A DNA stretch of 42,917 nucleotides from a virus (lineage: Duplodnaviria > Heunggongvirae > Uroviricota > Caudoviricetes), in the IMG/VR virus record IMGVR_UViG_2718218102_000002; one strand, given 5' to 3'. The translations under genes were made by a program, and so were the position numbers. Shown here piece after piece: positions 31,945 through 39,493 of the stretch (positions are counted from its first letter, which is position 1; every line of letters starts with the position of its first letter). Under the pieces are notes generated by a model that worked only from the letters and a program-made list of their open reading frames with translations, was not told where the DNA came from and searched no databases.

Positions 31945-32322
31945 ATGACCAACAAAGAAAACAAAGATAAATATATTAACAAGTTCAAGAAAGAGCTTTC
32001 AAAATATATACAACCAACTGCTGGAGTGGACATTCAATTATTTAACTCTAAGGATGGTGGTGGTGTAATTAAAGCCACTTTGAATAGAAGTGGAAAAAGA
32101 AAATCATCTATTGCAGGTAATTTTACTAAATTAGGTGAGGCAATTACCTCGAGTGGGCAGAGGGTTTTTGGTGGTGATCTATCAAATGTAAATTTTTACG
32201 GAACAAATACGATTTTTGATGGAGATACAATATTTTTAATTAAATCACCTGATTCAGAGGAGTGGTCATCACAAAAAGCTTCCAAAGACGTAGAGGGAAT
32301 CGTATTTGGAGGGAAAAAATGA
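31945..32322 (+). CDS. Hypothetical soluble protein (AT-rich opposite-strand cassette, gene 1)
   Basis: 125 aa, Lys/Gly-rich, no predicted TM segment; very low GC compared with flanking phage genes. Confidence 0.5.
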   Translation: MTNKENKDKYINKFKKELSKYIQPTAGVDIQLFNSKDGGGVIKATLNRSGKRKSSIAGNFTKLGEAITSSGQRVFGGDLSNVNFYGTNTIFDGDTIFLIKSPDSEEWSSQKASKDVEGIVFGGKK

Positions 32323-32747
32323 TTAACATTACTACTAAGGATGGCACTCAAGTCAGTGGTGAAGTAAGAGATCTAGTAATTCTTCTTGAAACTGATGGAA
32401 AAACGGTGTCTGATTATTTGCAGCCAATCCCTCCCAAAAAAGATACACACTGGAGCATGATTTTCATTCCGGTAGCAATTTATATACTACTTAATCTTGT
32501 ATACATTATTGCTCACCCATTATTTCCTGAAAAATATCTAAAAACATCAACATCTATATTTCTATTCATTTCCTTCATATTAAGTGCAATAGTAGCATAT
32601 TTTGTTTTCCATAAGCATAAATCTGCCACTCTATCCATATGCAGCTTAGTGTTCTTAGTGTTAATTGTAGGTGCTAACGTAGGGTTTATCAGTTACAGCG
32701 ACCTAACACAAAAAGCGACGCAAAAATTAGATAGTTTGTCTAAATAA
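32319..32747 (+). CDS. Hypothetical membrane protein, about 3 TM helices (AT-rich cassette, gene 2)
   Basis: Start set at MINITTKDG, with GGAGGG Shine-Dalgarno and ATGA overlap with the gene 1 stop. Soluble N-terminal ~45 aa, then three hydrophobic segments. Confidence 0.5.
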   Translation: MINITTKDGTQVSGEVRDLVILLETDGKTVSDYLQPIPPKKDTHWSMIFIPVAIYILLNLVYIIAHPLFPEKYLKTSTSIFLFISFILSAIVAYFVFHKHKSATLSICSLVFLVLIVGANVGFISYSDLTQKATQKLDSLSK

Positions 32748-32825: not shown

Positions 32826-33539
32826 TTATTCTTTATTATCTTCTTTACCACTTCGCACCATCCCGTTCGACTTGTTGCGGTTGTACTTCGCCTGAAGCAG
32901 CTGGATTGGCGTCGGGCCATGCTCGGCAGCCGGTGCTGCAATCGCCCGGCGCACAGGCGGTACTGGTTTGCCCTCGGTGACGCGCCTCTCCCACATGTCC
33001 AGCAGATCGCCGGCTTCACGCGCCAGCTCACCATGCGTTAACTGGCGCTCTGTGCTGCGGTGGCGCAGTTCGACGCAGATGTGGTACATGACAGGCTGTG
33101 ACCACGGGAAATGCTCGCTGGAAGTGAATTCGAAGGAACGATTACGCCAATCCCAGTATTCGGTTATGACTTGGTCAACAGTGATACCTAACGCCCCGCC
33201 ACTCTGCTTACACCACGCTACGAACTGGCCGGGCGACGGCAGGAATGGTCGCTCCTGTCGGCGGGCCACGCGCATTCCGGCGTTAACCTGCTCCATAGTG
33301 GTAATTCCATTTTCACGGAAAGCCATAACCCACTGACGGCGGATTTCGTTCAGCTCGTTCTGGTCGCGGTTCGCGAGGCTTGCCGGAAATGTCGCAAGCA
33401 GCTGGCTGAACACACCGTTGATGATCTGCGCCACCTGCTGCACCTGCGGCTTTTCGTCGTATTGTTCCGGCATGTTGTTGGCGATTCGACGCATCTGCTC
33501 ACGGTCAAAGTTAATCATCTGCGCGGCAATATTTTTCAT
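32826..33539 (-). CDS. P: Replication protein P (DnaB helicase loader)
   Basis: N-terminal ~110 aa (MKNIAAQMINFDREQMRRIANNMPEQYDEKPQVQQ…) matches lambda P as recalled; C-terminal part differs. Confidence 0.85.
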   Translation of the reverse strand: MKNIAAQMINFDREQMRRIANNMPEQYDEKPQVQQVAQIINGVFSQLLATFPASLANRDQNELNEIRRQWVMAFRENGITTMEQVNAGMRVARRQERPFLPSPGQFVAWCKQSGGALGITVDQVITEYWDWRNRSFEFTSSEHFPWSQPVMYHICVELRHRSTERQLTHGELAREAGDLLDMWERRVTEGKPVPPVRRAIAAPAAEHGPTPIQLLQAKYNRNKSNGMVRSGKEDNKE

Positions 33540-34465
33540 AGCTCCACCCCGTAAATCCAGTCAGTGTTTGTCAGGTCGAGTTTTGGTTTGCTGGCAGTCA
33601 CACCAGCCTGTTGCTTGTTGCGGTTAATTTCGAGCTGAGTCCACTTGTCGCGGAGTTTTGCTGGACTCAGCACGTTACCGGACCAGAAGTTGTCCTGGCA
33701 GGCCCAGCGGAACAGAACGCACATGTCGCGATGGTTACGCCCGTCACGCTCACGCATCAGGCGGATGTCGTTGGCCCACCCTGCAAAATTCGGTTTTCTG
33801 GCTGATGGCGCGATGGTCTTCACCATGTCAAACATCCACTCTGCGGCGGTCAGGTCTTCTGCTGTCCCCCACTTGCTGCCGCTCTGAATTGCAGCATCCG
33901 GTTTCACCACAGGAAGATCGTTTTCTGGCTGGTCAGAGGATTCGCCAGAATTCTCGGACGAAAAAGGTTTTATATTGTCTTTTGTTAGTTTGTCTTTTGT
34001 GTTTACCTGATTCGGGTAAACGTCTTTACCTGATTTGGGTAAACTTTTCTTACCTGATTCAGGTAAATTTACCTCTTTCAGGTAAACTTTATTTTTCTTA
34101 CCTGATTCGGGTAATGTTGACCATTCACTGACCACATTATTAATGCCGATATTCCGCCCGCTCTGAATAAAAATCCCACGCTTTACCAGAACACTTTTTG
34201 CAGCAGAACACTTGTGCGGCAATATCCCGGTCAACTCGGAAAGTTGCTCGTTGCTCACCCAATCCAGTTTTTTATTAAAGCCATATGTTTTGCGCATGAC
34301 AGCCAGGAAGACCAGAAGCTGGTGCTGTGTTAATCCGGCCAGCATCACAGCTTCCAGCAACTCATTTGCAATGCGCGTATAACCATCATCGAGATCTGCC
34401 ACGCGCGGCTCCTTTTGTGCCACATCCGGCACTGGAAAATTGAATATCTCAGCAGTGTTTGCCAT
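33536..34465 (-). CDS. O: Replication initiator O
   Basis: Start set at MANTAEIFNF (GGGAGG Shine-Dalgarno). N-terminal domain resembles lambda O (VADLDDGY, RKTYG-N); the gene contains the iteron array. Confidence 0.85.
   Translation of the reverse strand: MANTAEIFNFPVPDVAQKEPRVADLDDGYTRIANELLEAVMLAGLTQHQLLVFLAVMRKTYGFNKKLDWVSNEQLSELTGILPHKCSAAKSVLVKRGIFIQSGRNIGINNVVSEWSTLPESGKKNKVYLKEVNLPESGKKSLPKSGKDVYPNQVNTKDKLTKDNIKPFSSENSGESSDQPENDLPVVKPDAAIQSGSKWGTAEDLTAAEWMFDMVKTIAPSARKPNFAGWANDIRLMRERDGRNHRDMCVLFRWACQDNFWSGNVLSPAKLRDKWTQLEINRNKQQAGVTASKPKLDLTNTDWIYGVEL
34002..34115. repeat. ori: Origin of replication: five ~18-19-bp palindromic iterons (TTTACCTGATTCGGGTAAA-like) inside O, next to an AT-rich stretch (33961-34000)
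   Basis: Iterons at 34002-34020, 34025-34043, 34050-34067, 34068-34086 and 34098-34115. Confidence 0.75.
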
Positions 34466-34551
34466 AATTCCTCCCGCAATGAGTGTGTTACGATTTGCAC
34501 CTGAAAGTCGGTTCTGTTCGCGCAGACCGGCTTTCGCCATTTCTGAACCTG

Positions 34552-35097
34552 TCATATTGCCCCCAGCATGGTGGTGACCATCGCCATCAATGGACCAGCC
34601 AGATCCGGGTCCACACGAAACATCGACACAATGCCTTCACTCATCTCCTTCAGTTTCTGGTGGCGTGGTGCGTTGAGAATGACAGCCTGTTTTGCCTCAC
34701 TGAGTTCCTTTTCCATTTCAGCCAGCCGAGCCATGTAGCTATCCTGCTCAACCAGGTGGCCGCGATATTCCAGCGGTAGTACCGCCAGAATTGCCGGGGT
34801 CAGTTCACGCACGTTATTTCGGTATTTTTCAGAATCGAATTTGTTATCGAGAAAGCGGAACAGCTTCTGGCGTGCACGGCTGACATCATCAGGGAAATCG
34901 ATGGTGCCGCCGCCCTGCTCCCGATACTCATTCACAATGAGTGCGGCAACAACATCCTGATTATCTGCAGCCGACCAGGCGCGAACGGCATCACGGATTT
35001 TTTCGTGGCCTGGCGCCTGTTTTGTTTGAGAACGATTTATCACCGCAGTCGGGCTAAATCCGCTAGTCTGTTGGTATGTAAGTGGTTGCATAGTCAT
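34552..35097 (-). CDS. Hypothetical regulator in the cII position (CII-like or YdaT-like); function uncertain
   Basis: 181-aa ORF between cro and O; no family confidently recognised by eye. Confidence 0.4.
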   Translation of the reverse strand: MTMQPLTYQQTSGFSPTAVINRSQTKQAPGHEKIRDAVRAWSAADNQDVVAALIVNEYREQGGGTIDFPDDVSRARQKLFRFLDNKFDSEKYRNNVRELTPAILAVLPLEYRGHLVEQDSYMARLAEMEKELSEAKQAVILNAPRHQKLKEMSEGIVSMFRVDPDLAGPLMAMVTTMLGAI

Positions 35098-35121
35098 TGC
35101 CTTATCAGTTAACGCCGCAGT

Positions 35122-35349
35122 TTAGGCGGCAGAATTACTCGCGTTAAACAATGGTGCGAGGTCGGGACGAATATCTGCTGGTTTAATCTTTCCACCAGTG
35201 GCTGAGACAATTTTCATTACATAGCGGGCATCAATTCCGCCACCGTGTAGCCAACGCCAAACTGTGGGTTGGGCTACACCGCATAGATCTGCCAGTCGTT
35301 TTTGACTACCTGTAATACTGATTGCGAGTTGAATGGTTTGATTTGTCAT
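35122..35349 (-). CDS. cro: Cro-like HTH repressor
   Basis: 75 aa from the ATG at 35349 (track start is a TTG). HTH motif QKRLADLCGVAQPTVWRW; divergent from cI across the operator region. Confidence 0.7.
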   Translation of the reverse strand: MTNQTIQLAISITGSQKRLADLCGVAQPTVWRWLHGGGIDARYVMKIVSATGGKIKPADIRPDLAPLFNASNSAA

Positions 35350-35459
35350 TATCAATTCCTATTGGTATTGCAATGAATAAATAATAGCAATGCGTATTAA
35401 TCCAAGCAATAGCAAAACGTGTTTTGACCATCAATACGCAAGCGTATAAATTAAAACTT
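35350..35459. promoter_or_regulatory. Right operator/promoter region (oR with divergent pR and pRM-like promoters)
   Basis: Three ATAGCAAT/ACCAATAG-type sites spaced about 22-23 bp apart (35359-35375, 35381-35398, 35404-35418). Plus strand: TTGACC (35424-35429) and TATAAA (35445-35450) just before the cI ATG. Minus strand: TTGCTT-17nt-TATTAT upstream of cro. Confidence 0.5.
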
Positions 35460-36152
35460 ATGAAAAAAGAAACTCTTGCTGATCGCTTAAACCTAGCGAT
35501 GGAACAATCTGGAATGTCTCAAGGCGCTCTTGCAAAGGCGTCTGGCGTAGCTCAACCCACAATCTGGAGACTGACAAGCGGCAACGCGCGCGGCTCAACA
35601 AAAATTGTTGAAATAGCTAATGCATTGGGTGTTCGAACAGAATGGCTCTCATCAGGCATAGGCCCGATGAGAAATGACGGTCAACAATCAGGGAAGCCTG
35701 CTGTCAGCTATTCCAAATACTTTAAAATTGACGTTCTTGATATAGAAGTGAGTGCCGGGCCGGGAGTCATCAACCGTGAGTTTGTAGAAGTTCTACGCTC
35801 GGTTGAGTACTCGTTTGACGATGCTCGTCACATGTTCGATGGTAGGAAGGCAGAAAATATCCGCATCATTAACGTACGCGGTGACAGCATGTCAGGAACG
35901 ATTGAACCTGGTGATCTTCTATTCGTTGATATCACGGTTAAATCTTTCGACGGTGATGGTATCTATGCGTTTCTGTACGACGACACAGCCCATGTAAAGC
36001 GCCTGCAAATGATGAAGGATAAGCTGCTGGTTATCTCTGATAACAAAAGCTACTCACCGTGGGACCCGATCGAGAAAGATGAGATGAACCGGGTATTTAT
36101 CTTCGGGAAAGTTATTGGGAGCATGCCGCAGACGTATAGGAAGCATGGATAG
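35460..36152 (+). CDS. cI: CI-type repressor (N-terminal HTH plus C-terminal S24 LexA-like autopeptidase)
   Basis: HTH motif QGALAKASGVAQPTIWRL; GDSM and a downstream Lys (HVKRL) typical of the S24 Ser-Lys dyad. The ATG at 35460 is preferred over the track TTG at 35424. Confidence 0.85.
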   Translation: MKKETLADRLNLAMEQSGMSQGALAKASGVAQPTIWRLTSGNARGSTKIVEIANALGVRTEWLSSGIGPMRNDGQQSGKPAVSYSKYFKIDVLDIEVSAGPGVINREFVEVLRSVEYSFDDARHMFDGRKAENIRIINVRGDSMSGTIEPGDLLFVDITVKSFDGDGIYAFLYDDTAHVKRLQMMKDKLLVISDNKSYSPWDPIEKDEMNRVFIFGKVIGSMPQTYRKHG

Positions 36153-36232
36153 TACCAATTAAAAATTATCAACCGGGCATTGTGCTCATTCAGTAAAACA
36201 ACTTAATTATTCATTTTAGAATGGAGAACTTA

Positions 36233-37294
36233 ATGGATACTTTAAAATATGAGAAATTCTCTGATTTTGATCACAATGACCCATTTTTTGACTCTTTAAA
36301 AAAAGATTATAAAGAGTTTCCTCTTTGGTTAGAAAAAAAAGCCAGAGAAGGAGAATCAGCTTATGTGCTCTATGATGACAAGCATAAAATCGAAGGTTTT
36401 ATGTATCTAAAAGAAAATGATGATGCAAATGACATTAATCCAGCGCTCCCACCAGGACGTCATCTAAAGATAGGAACATTCAAATTTGAATCTAAAGGCA
36501 CCCTTCGCGGACAACGATTTCTAAAAAAAGCGTTTGACCATGCATTTTCATCAAAATCTGATGATATTTATGTTACTGTTTTCGACAAACACGTCCATCT
36601 AATAAAACTTTTCCAAACGTACGGATTTTACATTCATGGTGAAAAAGAAACACATAACGGGAAAGAGTTTGTATATGCGAGGTCTTTGCATGAGCCTTAT
36701 GGTGATATTTTATTAGATTACCCTCGAATAATGACATCAAGGGCCAACAAATATTTACTGGCGATTTATCCCGAATATCACACTAGACTATTCCCTGATT
36801 CAAAACTTGTAAATGAATCACCAGATATTGTCAAAGATATATCCCATGCTAACAGCATTCATAAAATTTACATATGTGGAATGCGTTCTGTGATGGGAAT
36901 GAAAAGAGGAGATATCATTGTCATCTATAGAACCGGAGACAAAAAAGGGCCAGCTCGCTATCGTTCTGTAGCCAGTACATTATGTGTAGTTGAGAGCGTA
37001 AAAAATATTTCTGAATTTTTAAGCGAAGATAGTTTTGTAGACTATTGTATTCGTTTTAGCGTATTTTCTGAAGATGAACTCAGAAAAATCTATAAAGAAC
37101 GTCGATACCCTTTCATTATAAGATTCACATACAATCTGTCTTTGCCAAAGAGACCCAATCGTGCTATTTTAATAGATCATGTGGGGCTAAATGGTTCGCG
37201 TGCATTCCGATGGAGTCACTTTAAACTCACAAATGAGCAGTTCTTAAAGATCATCGAGTTAGGCAAGATAAATGAAAGTTTTATTATCCATTAA
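36233..37294 (+). CDS. Hypothetical two-domain protein: possible GNAT-like N-terminal half and ASCH/PUA-like C-terminal half
   Basis: 353 aa from the second ATG (GGAG Shine-Dalgarno). N-terminal segment LRGQRFLKKAF…IYVTVFD…LFQTYGFYIHG loosely resembles GNAT motifs A/B. Domain calls are by eye and tentative. Confidence 0.55.
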   Translation: MDTLKYEKFSDFDHNDPFFDSLKKDYKEFPLWLEKKAREGESAYVLYDDKHKIEGFMYLKENDDANDINPALPPGRHLKIGTFKFESKGTLRGQRFLKKAFDHAFSSKSDDIYVTVFDKHVHLIKLFQTYGFYIHGEKETHNGKEFVYARSLHEPYGDILLDYPRIMTSRANKYLLAIYPEYHTRLFPDSKLVNESPDIVKDISHANSIHKIYICGMRSVMGMKRGDIIVIYRTGDKKGPARYRSVASTLCVVESVKNISEFLSEDSFVDYCIRFSVFSEDELRKIYKERRYPFIIRFTYNLSLPKRPNRAILIDHVGLNGSRAFRWSHFKLTNEQFLKIIELGKINESFIIH

Positions 37295-38707: not shown

Positions 38708-39493
38708 ATGAGTACAGCACTCGCAACGCTGGCAGGGAAGCTGGCTGAACGTGTCGGCATGGATTCTGTCGACCCACAGGAACTGATCACCACTCTTCGC
38801 CAGACAGCATTTAAAGGTGATGCCAGCGATGCGCAGTTCATCGCATTGTTGATCGTCGCCAACCAGTACGGCCTTAATCCGTGGACGAAAGAAATTTACG
38901 CCTTCCCTGATAAGCAGAACGGCATCGTTCCGGTGGTGGGCGTTGATGGCTGGTCCCGCATCATCAATGAAAACCAGCAGTTTGATGGCATGGACTTTGA
39001 GCAGGACAATGAATCCTGTACATGCCGGATTTACCGCAAGGACCGTAATCATCCGATCTGCGTTACCGAATGGATGGATGAATGCCGCCGCGAACCATTC
39101 AAAACTCGCGAAGGCAGAGAAATCACGGGGCCGTGGCAGTCGCATCCCAAACGGATGTTACGGCATAAAGCCATGATTCAGTGTGCCCGTCTGGCCTTCG
39201 GATTTGCTGGTATCTATGACAAGGATGAAGCCGAGCGCATTGTCGAAAATACTGCATACACTGCAGAACGTCAGCCAGAACGCGACATCACTCCGGTTAA
39301 CGATGAAACCATGCAGGAGATTAACACTCTGCTGATCGCCCTGGATAAAACATGGGATGACGACTTATTGCCGCTCTGTTCCCAGATATTTCGCCGCGAC
39401 ATTCGCGCATCGTCAGAACTGACACAGGCCGAAGCAGTGAAAGCTCTTGGATTCCTGAAACAGAAAGCCACTGAGCAGAAGGTGGCAGCATGA
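38708..39493 (+). CDS. bet: Bet (Red-beta single-strand annealing protein)
   Basis: 261 aa, starting [21 protein letters not shown], essentially lambda Bet as recalled. Confidence 0.95.

What the first reader, a model, noticed from the sequence alone, without database searches (positions are those of the whole stretch)
33961..34115. Replication origin iterons embedded in the O gene
Five palindromic 18-19-bp repeats of the TTTACCTGATTCGGGTAAA type lie inside the O coding region beside an AT-rich tract, mirroring lambda ori. The iteron sequence predicts the O-protein specificity of this replicon.
Basis: seen in the sequence. Interest (0 to 1): 0.45.

Follow-up and report, generated by a model that had tools for sequence, protein, structure and literature searches.

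The report
Lambda-type replication origin inside O gene
This is an ordinary lambda-style phage replication origin, five palindromic initiator-binding repeats plus an AT-rich unwinding tract inside the prophage's O gene, using a repeat sequence that differs from lambda, phi80 and P22 but is very common in E. coli prophages.

Summary
Five copies of TTACC-N7-GGTAA lie at 34003-34114, against 0.02 expected by chance. A 75% A+T tract (33961-34001) follows them. Both sit inside an O-type initiator gene on the minus strand (33536-34465), directly upstream of a lambda-P-type loader gene.

The layout matches oriλ. The iterons lie between the N-terminal DNA-binding domain and the C-terminal domain. Their spacing is 29/19/24/23 bp, against 20/24/23 in lambda. 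The CACAAAAGACA AT-rich motif begins 2 bp after the last iteron.

The repeats are read in two codon phases. Their half-sites are 98-100% conserved across genera, while synonymous codon positions are about 53% identical. They are therefore DNA sites, not peptide repeats.

Across 47 non-redundant O N-domains, iteron class tracks N-domain relatedness (nearest neighbour in the same class 45/47).

The class differs from lambda/434/21 (TCCCT-N7-AGGGA) and phi80, and is one base out of register with P22 (TTTAC-N7-GTAAA). I could not compare it with phage 82.

The module occurs in 2452 of 5426 complete E. coli genomes and in isolated phages. I rate it a new member of a known kind, of low interest. Binding and origin firing are inferred, not shown.

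The parts
34098..34114 (-). Iteron 1, farthest from the AT tract: TTACCCGAATCAGGTAA, codon phase 0, encodes LPESGK. It is the 'extra' fifth iteron, 29 bp upstream of iteron 2.
   Evidence: It is absent from the 4-iteron relatives in Pantoea, Xenorhabdus and Providencia.
34069..34085 (-). Iteron 2: TTACCTGAAAGAGGTAA, codon phase 2, encodes YLKEV. It corresponds in position to lambda ITN1.
   Evidence: The AAAGA/AAAAA centre of this copy is conserved across genera.
34050..34066 (-). Iteron 3: TTACCTGAATCAGGTAA, the most symmetrical copy (16 of 17 positions self-complementary, the maximum for an odd-length palindrome), codon phase 0, 19 bp after iteron 2.
34026..34042 (-). Iteron 4: TTACCCAAATCAGGTAA, codon phase 0, 24 bp after iteron 3.
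34003..34019 (-). Iteron 5: TTACCCGAATCAGGTAA, codon phase 2, 23 bp after iteron 4. It ends 2 bp before the AT-rich motif.
33961..34001 (-). AT-rich tract (about 75% A+T): CACAAAAGACAAACTAACAAAAGACAATATAAAACCTTTTT. This is the presumed DNA-unwinding element. It is also the junction where homology to lambda-type O genes (434 used as the reference) begins.
   Evidence: Composition. The motif is shared with lambda/434, P22, a Klebsiella phage and SEN34. It starts 2 bp after the last iteron in nearly all loci. Identity to 434 rises from about 50% to 80-100% here.
33536..34465 (-). O-type replication initiator gene (309 aa, starting MANTAEIFNF, preceded by GGAGG). The N-terminal domain (aa 1-117) is encoded by 34115-34465. 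The iteron- and AT-encoded linker is aa 118-~165. The C-terminal domain starts at about aa 198.
   Evidence: Pfam PF04492, E=7e-34. PHROG 277 'replication initiation O-like', E=3e-164. AlphaFold model.
32826..33539 (-). Lambda-P-type helicase-loader gene (237 aa), overlapping the O stop codon.
   Evidence: Pfam PF06992, E=7e-49. 63% identical to the P protein of lambda-type phage 434 overall, and nearly identical over residues 1-113.
33932..33959 (-). Imperfect inverted repeat GTCCGAGAATTCTGGCGAATCCTCTGAC immediately after the AT tract, almost identical to the lambda-type (434) sequence. It is not known to be required.
   Evidence: 100% identity to 434 over 33926-33955. It lies outside the oriλ interval 39034-39160 given in PMC3349717.

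Best explanation
The region is the vegetative (theta-mode) replication origin of a lambdoid prophage, built like oriλ.

Proposed mechanism, with each step marked as shown or inferred:
- Dimers of the prophage's own O protein bind through the N-terminal winged-helix domain to each of the five palindromic TTACC-N7-GGTAA iterons (inferred).
- The bound array forms an 'O-some' that stresses and opens the adjacent AT-rich tract (inferred).
- The O C-terminal domain is almost identical to that of lambda-type O proteins. It recruits the P-DnaB complex through the equally lambda-like N-terminal half of P, and host chaperones release the helicase (inferred).
- Because the iterons lie in the gene segment coding for a disordered linker, the N-domain and its cognate sites travel together as one specificity module. 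The C-domain and P form a second module, joined at the conserved AT-rich tract (module boundary shown; co-transfer inferred).

Shown here: the sequence anatomy, DNA-level conservation, covariation with the N-domain, and the module boundary. Inferred from lambda biochemistry: binding, O-some formation, unwinding and P-DnaB recruitment.
For: - **Repeats are not chance.** Five matches against 0.02 expected.
- **DNA-level, not peptide-level.** The five copies start in codon phases 0,2,0,0,2 and encode LPESGK or (V)YLKEV/(V)YPNQV.
- **Half-sites are under selection.** In five orthologous origins from Enterobacter, Pseudocitrobacter and Klebsiella, half-site positions are 49-50/50 identical. Iteron centres are 28-31/35, inter-iteron bases 16-22/27, and N-domain third codon positions 56-68/117.
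- **Architecture shared with annotated origins.** These are the gpO sites of 434/lambda, the P22 rep_origin and the phi80 gp15 sites. Across 167 loci the last spacings are 19-20/24/23 bp and ACAAAAGA starts 2 bp after the last iteron.
- **Covariation.** Iteron class follows the N-domain cluster: nearest neighbour in the same class in 45/47, against 8.5 for permuted labels (maximum 21). The columns most associated with class are residues 82-85, 88 and 91. These fall at the start of the predicted third helix, H83-95, of an H-H-H-β-hairpin winged-helix layout.
- **Iterons sit in a disordered linker.** The iteron- and AT-coded residues lie within the 116-197 segment with pLDDT below 50 and no secondary structure.
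- **Partner proteins.** O has PF04492 and P has PF06992. The O 3' half is 83-100% identical in DNA to the O gene of lambda-type phage 434. The first 113 residues of P are nearly identical to 434 P.
- **Present in viable phages.** The same N-domain plus origin, at 98-99.6% identity, occurs in isolated phages (Perceval, 1W, 3W, 4A7, the PhiR series). It also occurs in 2452 of 5426 complete E. coli genomes.
- **In-frame changes only.** Iteron number changes only by multiples of 3 bp (24, 48 or 72 bp). This is expected if both the frame and the sites matter.
- **Lambda precedent.** oriλ consists of four 18-bp iterons plus a 38-bp AT-rich tract, and O binding is required for theta replication (PMC3349717).
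Against: - There is no experimental evidence for this iteron class. No paper in the searchable library contains the sequence, and no solved structure of an O homologue exists.
- The AlphaFold model is only moderately confident: N-domain pLDDT 62-79, overall mean 57.5. Foldseek matches to winged-helix regulators are all non-significant, with best E=0.04.
- The covariation and specificity-position statistics are confounded by shared ancestry.
- Most iteron centres here (GAATC) lack the central A4 tract of lambda's iterons; only iteron 2 has AAAGA. Lambda-like intrinsic bending is therefore not evident from the sequence and was not computed.
- Whether the fifth, distal iteron is bound is unknown. 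In Stx phages with six iterons only the four proximal ones are strongly bound (PMC7466680).
- Two loci with 69-75% identical N-domains (L010, L013) have no iteron array downstream. The association is therefore not absolute.
Confidence: 0.9

Rival explanations
1. The array is a real origin, but only the four AT-proximal iterons (34003-34085, the ones with lambda's 19/24/23 spacing) are true high-affinity O sites. The fifth, distal copy (34098-34114) would be an auxiliary or regulatory site, or a neutral product of repeat slippage. This refines the main explanation rather than replacing it.
For: Relatives in Pantoea, Xenorhabdus and Providencia have only the four copies with 19/24/23 spacing. 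The fifth copy sits at an unusual 29-bp distance. In Stx phages with six iterons only four are strongly bound, although the extra ones still matter for plasmid establishment (PMC7466680). Iteron number varies from 2 to 10 in this class.
Against: The fifth copy keeps all 10 half-site bases in the window, and at least 9 of 10 in Enterobacter (L007, L008), Pseudocitrobacter and Klebsiella, despite about 47% divergence at synonymous sites. That argues for selection on it. The 48-bp unit of iterons 1 plus 2 is what is amplified in Kluyvera.
Confidence: 0.35
2. The sequence is a relic: the prophage is defective and the origin no longer fires.
For: Many E. coli prophages are cryptic. Some E. coli O-gene variants of this type carry in-frame deletions that leave only 2 or 3 iterons (P0008, P0011-13, P0006). 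These resemble lambda ori- deletions (PMC6022878).
Against: In this window O and P are intact ORFs with full-length family matches and all five iterons are present. The N-domain plus origin is 99.6% identical to that of isolated phages, several with a listed propagation host. The window carries a full set of lambdoid modules, from head and tail genes to integrase.
Confidence: 0.08
3. The repeats exist because of selection on a repeated peptide in the O linker (a protein-level repeat), not as DNA sites.
For: Three copies do encode the same LP(E/K)SGK peptide.
Against: Two copies are read in another frame and encode unrelated peptides. DNA half-sites, including third codon positions, are 98-100% conserved where synonymous sites elsewhere are about 53% identical. 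Each unit is palindromic, which a peptide repeat does not require. The linker is predicted to be disordered.
Confidence: 0.02
4. The palindromes are operators for a different protein (the prophage repressor, Cro/YdaS, CII/YdaT or host DnaA), or RNA or terminator hairpins.
For: They are dyad-symmetric like operators. One weak Rfam hit (rliD, 16.6 bits against a gathering score of 50) overlaps them.
Against: The motif occurs nowhere else in the window, including the cI-cro intergenic region where operators must lie. No DnaA-box enrichment was found. No terminator-like site was found there. The motif class covaries with the O N-domain, and not with the immunity genes, which differ between loci that share it (for example Klebsiella L004).
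Confidence: 0.02

Closest known systems
oriλ of phage lambda (also 434 and 21)
   Same: The iterons lie inside gene O, between the N- and C-terminal domains, as 17-19-bp palindromes of 5-N7-5 form. The last spacings are 24 and 23 bp. The CACAAAAGACA...ACAAAAGA AT-rich tract begins 2 bp after the last iteron. The O C-terminal half (83-100% DNA identity) and the N-terminal half of P are lambda-like (comparison made against 434).
   Different: The half-site is TTACC/GGTAA rather than TCCCT/AGGGA. There are five iterons rather than four, with the extra copy 29 bp upstream. The centre is GAATC rather than an A4 tract. The O N-domain is only 47-48% identical. The immunity region is of YdaS/YdaT (phi80-CII-like) type.
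P22 origin in gene 18 (annotated rep_origin, OQ031658)
   Same: This is the closest characterised iteron sequence: TTTACCGAATCGGTAAA shares the TTACC/GGTAA hexamer arms and the GAATC core. It has the same 20/24/23 spacing and AT-rich motif. The N-domain is 58-59% identical.
   Different: The arms are 5 bp apart in P22 and 7 bp apart here. Equivalently, in the common 5-N7-5 register the half-site is TTTAC versus TTACC, a one-base slide per half-site. P22 has four iterons. Its C-terminal domain is unrelated and pairs with a DnaB-type helicase (gp12) instead of P.
phi80 origin in gene 15 (annotated gp15 sites, JX871397)
   Same: Four repeats lie inside an O-like gene followed by an AT-rich stretch. 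The cII-like gene of the window is 67% identical to phi80 CII, and the O proteins are 43% identical.
   Different: The iterons are TTCCCGAAAACGGGAA at a regular 21-bp spacing. The AT-rich motif also differs.
Stx-phage origins (933W, P27) with six iterons
   Same: They are precedent for more than four iterons in a lambda-type origin, with the extra copies distal to the AT tract (PMC7466680).
   Different: Stx iterons are of the lambda sequence class and are bound by lambda O. Here the class is different.
Klebsiella phage ST11-VIM1phi8.2 and Enterobacter/Kluyvera prophage origins
   Same: They have the same TTACC-N7-GGTAA class and the same 29/19/24/23 layout. The N-domain is 82-86% identical.
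   Different: The Klebsiella O C-terminal domain is different and is followed by a gene annotated 'AAA family ATPase' instead of P. This shows that the N-domain plus iteron module is exchanged independently. Kluyvera has nine iterons.
Iteron-type plasmid origins (RepA, π or TrfA families)
   Same: Multiple initiator sites lie next to an AT-rich unwinding element.
   Different: Plasmid iterons are usually asymmetric direct repeats bound by monomers. They lie outside the rep gene and are accompanied by DnaA boxes. Here the sites are palindromic and intragenic, and no DnaA-box enrichment is seen.

Membership tests
Lambda-type (O/P) replication origin | Tandem array of at least four iterons of about 18-19 bp, each with internal dyad symmetry | tested here: met
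   Five copies, with 14-16 of 17 positions self-complementary.
Lambda-type (O/P) replication origin | Array located inside the initiator gene, between the DNA-binding N-domain and the C-domain | tested here: met
   The iterons occupy O nucleotides 352-463, coding for residues 118-155. This is after the PF04492 match (aa 21-115) and before the lambda-like C-domain. The segment is predicted to be disordered.
Lambda-type (O/P) replication origin | AT-rich tract of about 40 bp immediately downstream of the iterons in the direction of O transcription | tested here: met
   33961-34001 is 25% G+C. The conserved ACAAAAGA motif starts 2 bp after the last iteron.
Lambda-type (O/P) replication origin | Characteristic iteron spacing (lambda 20/24/23 bp) | tested here: met
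   Spacing is 19/24/23 for the four proximal copies, plus one copy at 29 bp.
Lambda-type (O/P) replication origin | Initiator of the Phage_rep_O family and an adjacent lambda-P-type loader | tested here: met
   PF04492 E=7e-34; PF06992 E=7e-49. P is 63% identical to the P protein of lambda-type phage 434.
Lambda-type (O/P) replication origin | O protein binds the iterons; the origin fires and depends on rightward transcription | not testable with these tools
   Only covariation and DNA-level conservation are available as indirect support.
Lambda-type (O/P) replication origin | Intrinsic sequence-directed curvature of the iteron array | not tested
   By eye, A-tracts lie between the iterons rather than at their centres. 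No curvature calculation was run.
Lambda replication-specificity class (lambda, 434, 21) | Iteron consensus ATCCCTCAAAACGAGGGA recognised by lambda O | tested here: not met
   The half-sites are TTACC/GGTAA. The N-domain is 47-48% identical to lambda O.
P22 (gene 18) specificity class | Iteron consensus TTTACCGAATCGGTAAA (TTTAC-N7-GTAAA) | tested here: not met
   The half-site is shifted by one base per arm. The N-domains form separate clusters at 58-59% identity.
phi80 (gene 15) specificity class | Iterons TTCCCGAAAACGGGAA at 21-bp spacing | tested here: not met
Phage 82 specificity class | Iteron sequence of the phage 82 origin | not testable with these tools
   No phage 82 origin sequence was found among the phage-collection hits or in the paper library.

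The most novel reading that the evidence does not exclude
TTACC-N7-GGTAA may define a separate replication-specificity (initiator-origin) group that has never been studied experimentally, even though it is carried by about 45% of complete E. coli genomes. It would not cross-react with lambda O or P22 gp18. It would have arisen from the P22-type site by a one-base outward slide of each half-site, together with changes at O residues 82-91. Its iteron number (2 to 10) would be tuned by in-frame 24/48-bp slippage that changes origin strength and O linker length at the same time. It might equally turn out to be the classic, already sequenced phage 82 type.
Probability: 0.45. Interest if true: 0.3.

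Novelty: new member of a known kind. Interest (0 to 1): 0.2.

Why it matters
The finding mainly helps annotation. It marks the origin and the specificity module of a replication cassette present in nearly half of complete E. coli genomes, where the gene is currently labelled only 'replication protein'.

Knowing the iteron class predicts which co-resident lambdoid prophages, phages or λdv-like plasmids can share or compete for an initiator.

The catalogue of 5-N7-5 classes with matched N-domains gives a natural data set for working out how winged-helix initiators read DNA. The classes are TCCCT, GTCAC, GTCTC, TTAGC, TTTAC, TTACC and TTCCC.

It does not change the picture of how lambdoid phages replicate.

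Tried and rejected
- **Literature search by sequence.** I searched for the iteron sequence itself and for phage 82 / phi80 origin descriptions. No paper holds the sequence.
- **Solved structures.** No PDB homologue of O was found by sequence. Foldseek with the AlphaFold model returned only non-significant hits, almost all winged-helix regulators. I treat this as weak support.
- **Rfam.** Only sub-threshold chance hits were found in 33000-36500.
- **DnaA boxes.** They occur at chance level, so a plasmid or oriC-like DnaA-dependent layout is rejected.
- **Promoter and terminator scan.** Nothing lies within the iteron array, so the hairpin/terminator reading is rejected.
- **Peptide-repeat reading.** Rejected by the codon-phase analysis.
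- **Circularity in the site matrix.** The position weight matrix of 227 sites was built from sites selected on their half-sites. I therefore do not use its half-site conservation as evidence. I rely instead on the fixed-offset comparison.

Full report
**1. Observation**

The + strand of 33961-34115 reads as an AT-rich stretch followed by five near-identical palindromes. The repeat finder returns a five-member family with start-to-start spacings of 23, 24, 19 and 29 bp, and many mutual inverted-repeat pairs. The degenerate pattern TTACCTNNTTYRGGTAA, with up to 1 mismatch, hits only these five places in the 42.9-kb window: 34003-19, 34026-42, 34050-66, 34069-85 and 34098-34114. Dinucleotide shuffles give 0.02 matches on average, and none reaches the observed count. 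G+C falls to 25% at 33960-33999, against 50-65% in the flanks.

**2. Context**

The repeats lie inside a minus-strand ORF (33536-34555 at its longest). Its product matches Pfam Phage_rep_O over residues 21-115 of the 309-aa form (E=7e-34) and PHROG 277 'replication initiation O-like'.

The next gene downstream, 32826-33539, is a lambda-P homologue (PF06992, E=7e-49). Upstream lie three regulatory genes:
- a YdaT-family gene, 67% identical to phi80 CII;
- a YdaS/Cro-like gene;
- a divergent LexA-like repressor.

YdaS and YdaT have been shown to be Cro and CII analogues in another cryptic lambdoid prophage (PMC8630535). The window as a whole is a complete lambdoid prophage in reverse orientation.

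In the direction of O transcription, the order is N-terminal domain, five iterons, AT-rich tract, C-terminal domain.

**3. Comparison with annotated origins**

| Phage | Iteron | Copies and spacing | Source |
|---|---|---|---|
| 434 (lambda-type replication region; annotated 'ori lambda') | ATCCCTCAAAACGAGGGA | four gpO sites, followed by CACAAAAGACACTA..ACAAAAGAAAA | |
| 21 | annotated 'ori lambda' gpO iterons (sequence not read) | annotated as lambda-type | |
| phi80 | TTCCCGAAAACGGGAA | four gp15 sites every 21 bp | |
| P22 (annotated rep_origin) | TTTACCGAATCGGTAAA | four, followed by CACAAAAGACAATATACAAAAGACAA | |

The window, read on the O strand, has TTACCCGAATCAGGTAA-type sites followed by CACAAAAGACAAACTAACAAAAGACAA. 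It has the lambda/P22 layout and AT-rich motif, but its own iteron sequence.

DNA identity to the lambda-type O gene (434 used as the reference) is about 30-65% through the N-domain and iterons. It jumps to 80-100% from the AT-rich tract to the end of the gene. The first 113 residues of P are almost identical to 434 P. The AT-rich tract is therefore the mosaic joint between an 'N-domain plus iterons' module and a 'C-domain plus P' module. A Klebsiella phage illustrates this. It has the same five-iteron layout and an 82% identical N-domain, but a different C-terminal domain and a downstream gene annotated 'AAA family ATPase'.

**4. DNA sites or peptide repeats?**

The five cores start in codon phases 0, 2, 0, 0 and 2. 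They encode LPESGK or LPKSGK in one frame and YLKEV or YPNQV in the other, so the repeat is kept at the DNA level.

I compared the window at fixed offsets with five orthologous origins from Enterobacter, Pseudocitrobacter and Klebsiella:

| Position category | Identical to the window |
|---|---|
| Half-site positions | 49-50 of 50 |
| Iteron centres | 28-31 of 35 |
| Inter-iteron bases | 16-22 of 27 |
| N-domain third codon positions | 56-68 of 117 |

The half-sites include bases at all three codon positions, so this is selection on DNA beyond what coding requires.

The changes in iteron number I recorded are all multiples of three bases:
- a 24-bp loss (L136);
- a 48-bp two-iteron unit amplified to give nine copies in Kluyvera (L009);
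- 48- and 72-bp losses in some E. coli proteins.

They fit a dual constraint of reading frame and site geometry. Lambda ori- mutations are likewise in-frame deletions (PMC6022878 abstract).

**5. Does the iteron predict specificity?**

I fetched 80 diverse loci from one-genome-per-species contigs and 80 close relatives from IMG/VR, using the N-domain as query. I then detected repeats de novo downstream of each N-domain.

Almost all loci show the same architecture. The palindromes have 5-N7-5 form, the last spacings are 19-20/24/23 (24/24 in one class), and ACAAAAGA follows 2 bp later.

The half-sites fall into discrete classes: TCCCT (lambda), GTCAC, GTCTC, TTAGC, TTTAC (P22), TTCCC and TTACC (this window). 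Among 47 non-redundant N-domains, the nearest neighbour has the same class in 45. Permuted labels give 8.5 on average and at most 21. Shared ancestry inflates this statistic, but the mapping on the clustering is clean.

The TTACC class spans N-domains down to about 64% identity. It occurs in E. coli, Enterobacter, Kluyvera, Klebsiella, Pseudocitrobacter, Pantoea, Xenorhabdus, Providencia, Arsenophonus and Sodalis, with 4 to 10 copies.

The alignment columns most associated with class and conserved within class are residues 82-85, 88 and 91 (LPHKCSAAKS), plus 47, 48, 53 and 57.

An AlphaFold model is of moderate confidence, with N-domain pLDDT 62-79. It has these elements:
- helices at 22-41, 47-61, 72-79 and 83-95;
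- a β-hairpin at 99-108, which completes a winged-helix layout and places the class-specific residues at the start of the putative recognition helix;
- no structure and pLDDT below 50 over residues 116-197, the part encoded by the iterons and AT tract;
- a helical C-domain.

Foldseek hits are nearly all winged-helix regulators, but none is significant.

**6. Relation to P22**

TTTACC-GAATC-GGTAAA (P22) and TTTACC-YGAATCR-GGTAAA (this window) share their arms and core but differ by one base per half-site. In the common 5-N7-5 register the contacted pentamer would be TTTAC versus TTACC. This is a description of the sequences. That it reflects an evolutionary register slide is inference.

**7. 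Distribution**

The 526-bp N-domain plus origin matches 2452 of 5426 complete E. coli genomes, 492 of them at 99% identity or more. E. coli 536 is one example, where the gene is annotated only as 'replication protein'. It also matches 15 phage records at 98-99.6% identity, several with a listed propagation host. So it is common and is carried by viable phages. No paper in the library contains the iteron sequence.

**8. Mechanism**

By homology with lambda, O dimers would bind the dyads, the O-some would open the AT tract, and the O C-domain would recruit P-DnaB. For lambda, PMC3349717 defines oriλ as four 18-bp iterons plus a 38-bp AT-rich tract that require O binding for theta replication. 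PMC7466680 reports that O proteins are dimers and describes their footprints on iterons. All of these steps are inferred for this element.

The role of the fifth iteron, 29 bp distal, is open. Four-iteron relatives exist, and in Stx phages the extra iterons are bound weakly but are still needed. Against a neutral origin, the half-sites of the fifth copy are conserved across genera.

**9. Verdict**

This is a lambda-type origin of a distinct iteron class that has apparently not been characterised. The class is very common and its mechanism is unsurprising. I rate it a new member of a known kind, of low interest. The main caveats are the absence of biochemical data and the missing comparison with phage 82.

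Noticed in passing
window 34466-34555 (minus strand): The longest O ORF starts at an ATG at 34555 that overlaps the ydaT-like stop codon, giving 339 aa. Most database records annotate this long form. The ATG at 34465 (MANTAEIFNF) is preceded by GGGAGGAATT and aligns with the starts of lambda, phi80, Klebsiella and Salmonella O proteins. The 30-aa extension is probably not translated.
   Followed up: partly
window 34440-34545 (+ strand): This may be an oop/M3-like antisense RNA between the cII-like gene and O. A promoter-like site (TTGAAT-17-CATAAT with an upstream TG) lies at 34440-34468. A strong hairpin (about 34503-34535, z=-2.4) follows, with a weak T-rich tail. The position matches phi80 M3 RNA. 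There was no Rfam match.
   Followed up: partly
window 36221-37294 (+ strand): A 357-aa gene lies immediately beside the repressor gene. It matches the PADLOC candidate defence family PDC-M11A (E=2e-133) and PHROG 6345 (unknown function), with no Pfam hit. It is probably a prophage-encoded defence or moron gene in the slot next to the repressor gene.
   Followed up: partly
window 31945-32747 (+ strand): Two ORFs (125 aa, and 161 aa with membrane-like character) lie opposite to the early-right operon, between P and a NinB-like gene, where lambda has ren. They match PHROGs 18061 and 16940, both of unknown function. This is a likely moron insertion.
   Followed up: partly
window 34552-35097 (minus strand): The protein that Pfam names 'YdaT toxin' is 67% identical to phi80 CII. 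The literature shows that YdaT acts as a CII analogue, not a toxin. The immunity region is therefore phi80/Rac-like, while the second half of O and the first half of P are lambda-like.
   Followed up: yes
window 32826-33539 (minus strand): The P protein is nearly identical to the P protein of lambda-type phage 434 over residues 1-113 but diverges strongly afterwards (63% overall). There is a second mosaic joint inside P.
   Followed up: no
L006 (phage D2, OM475427) 711-1732: The O gene of this record is a chimera. Its 5' part is identical to the window's O type, and the rest, including the four iterons, is lambda sequence. It is annotated as two split CDSs. It may be a real recombinant with a frameshift or an assembly artefact from a mixed lysate.
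   Followed up: partly
L055, L058-L063, L065-L067 (genome contigs): Apparently lambda-type O genes (identical match statistics across these loci; lambda iterons confirmed in L062) sit on short or low-coverage contigs assigned to unrelated organisms. These include Pseudomonas, Neobacillus, Oceanobacillus, Paenibacillus, Bradyrhizobium, Ruminococcus and Leeuwenhoekiella. This is most likely lambda DNA contamination of those assemblies.
   Followed up: partly
L010 (Enterobacter sichuanensis) and L013 (Klebsiella grimontii), about 1845-2200: The O N-domains are 69-75% identical to the window's, but no iteron array or ACAAAAGA motif follows them. Only a 2x20-bp repeat lies about 290 bp further on. 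This may be a different origin arrangement.
   Followed up: partly
L009 (Kluyvera), L022 (Arsenophonus), L026 (Sodalis); proteins P0006, P0008, P0011-13: Iteron copy number in this class ranges from 2 to 10. Kluyvera has the 48-bp two-iteron unit in triplicate. Some E. coli chromosomal copies have lost 48 or 72 bp in frame. These may be attenuated origins in decaying prophages.
   Followed up: partly
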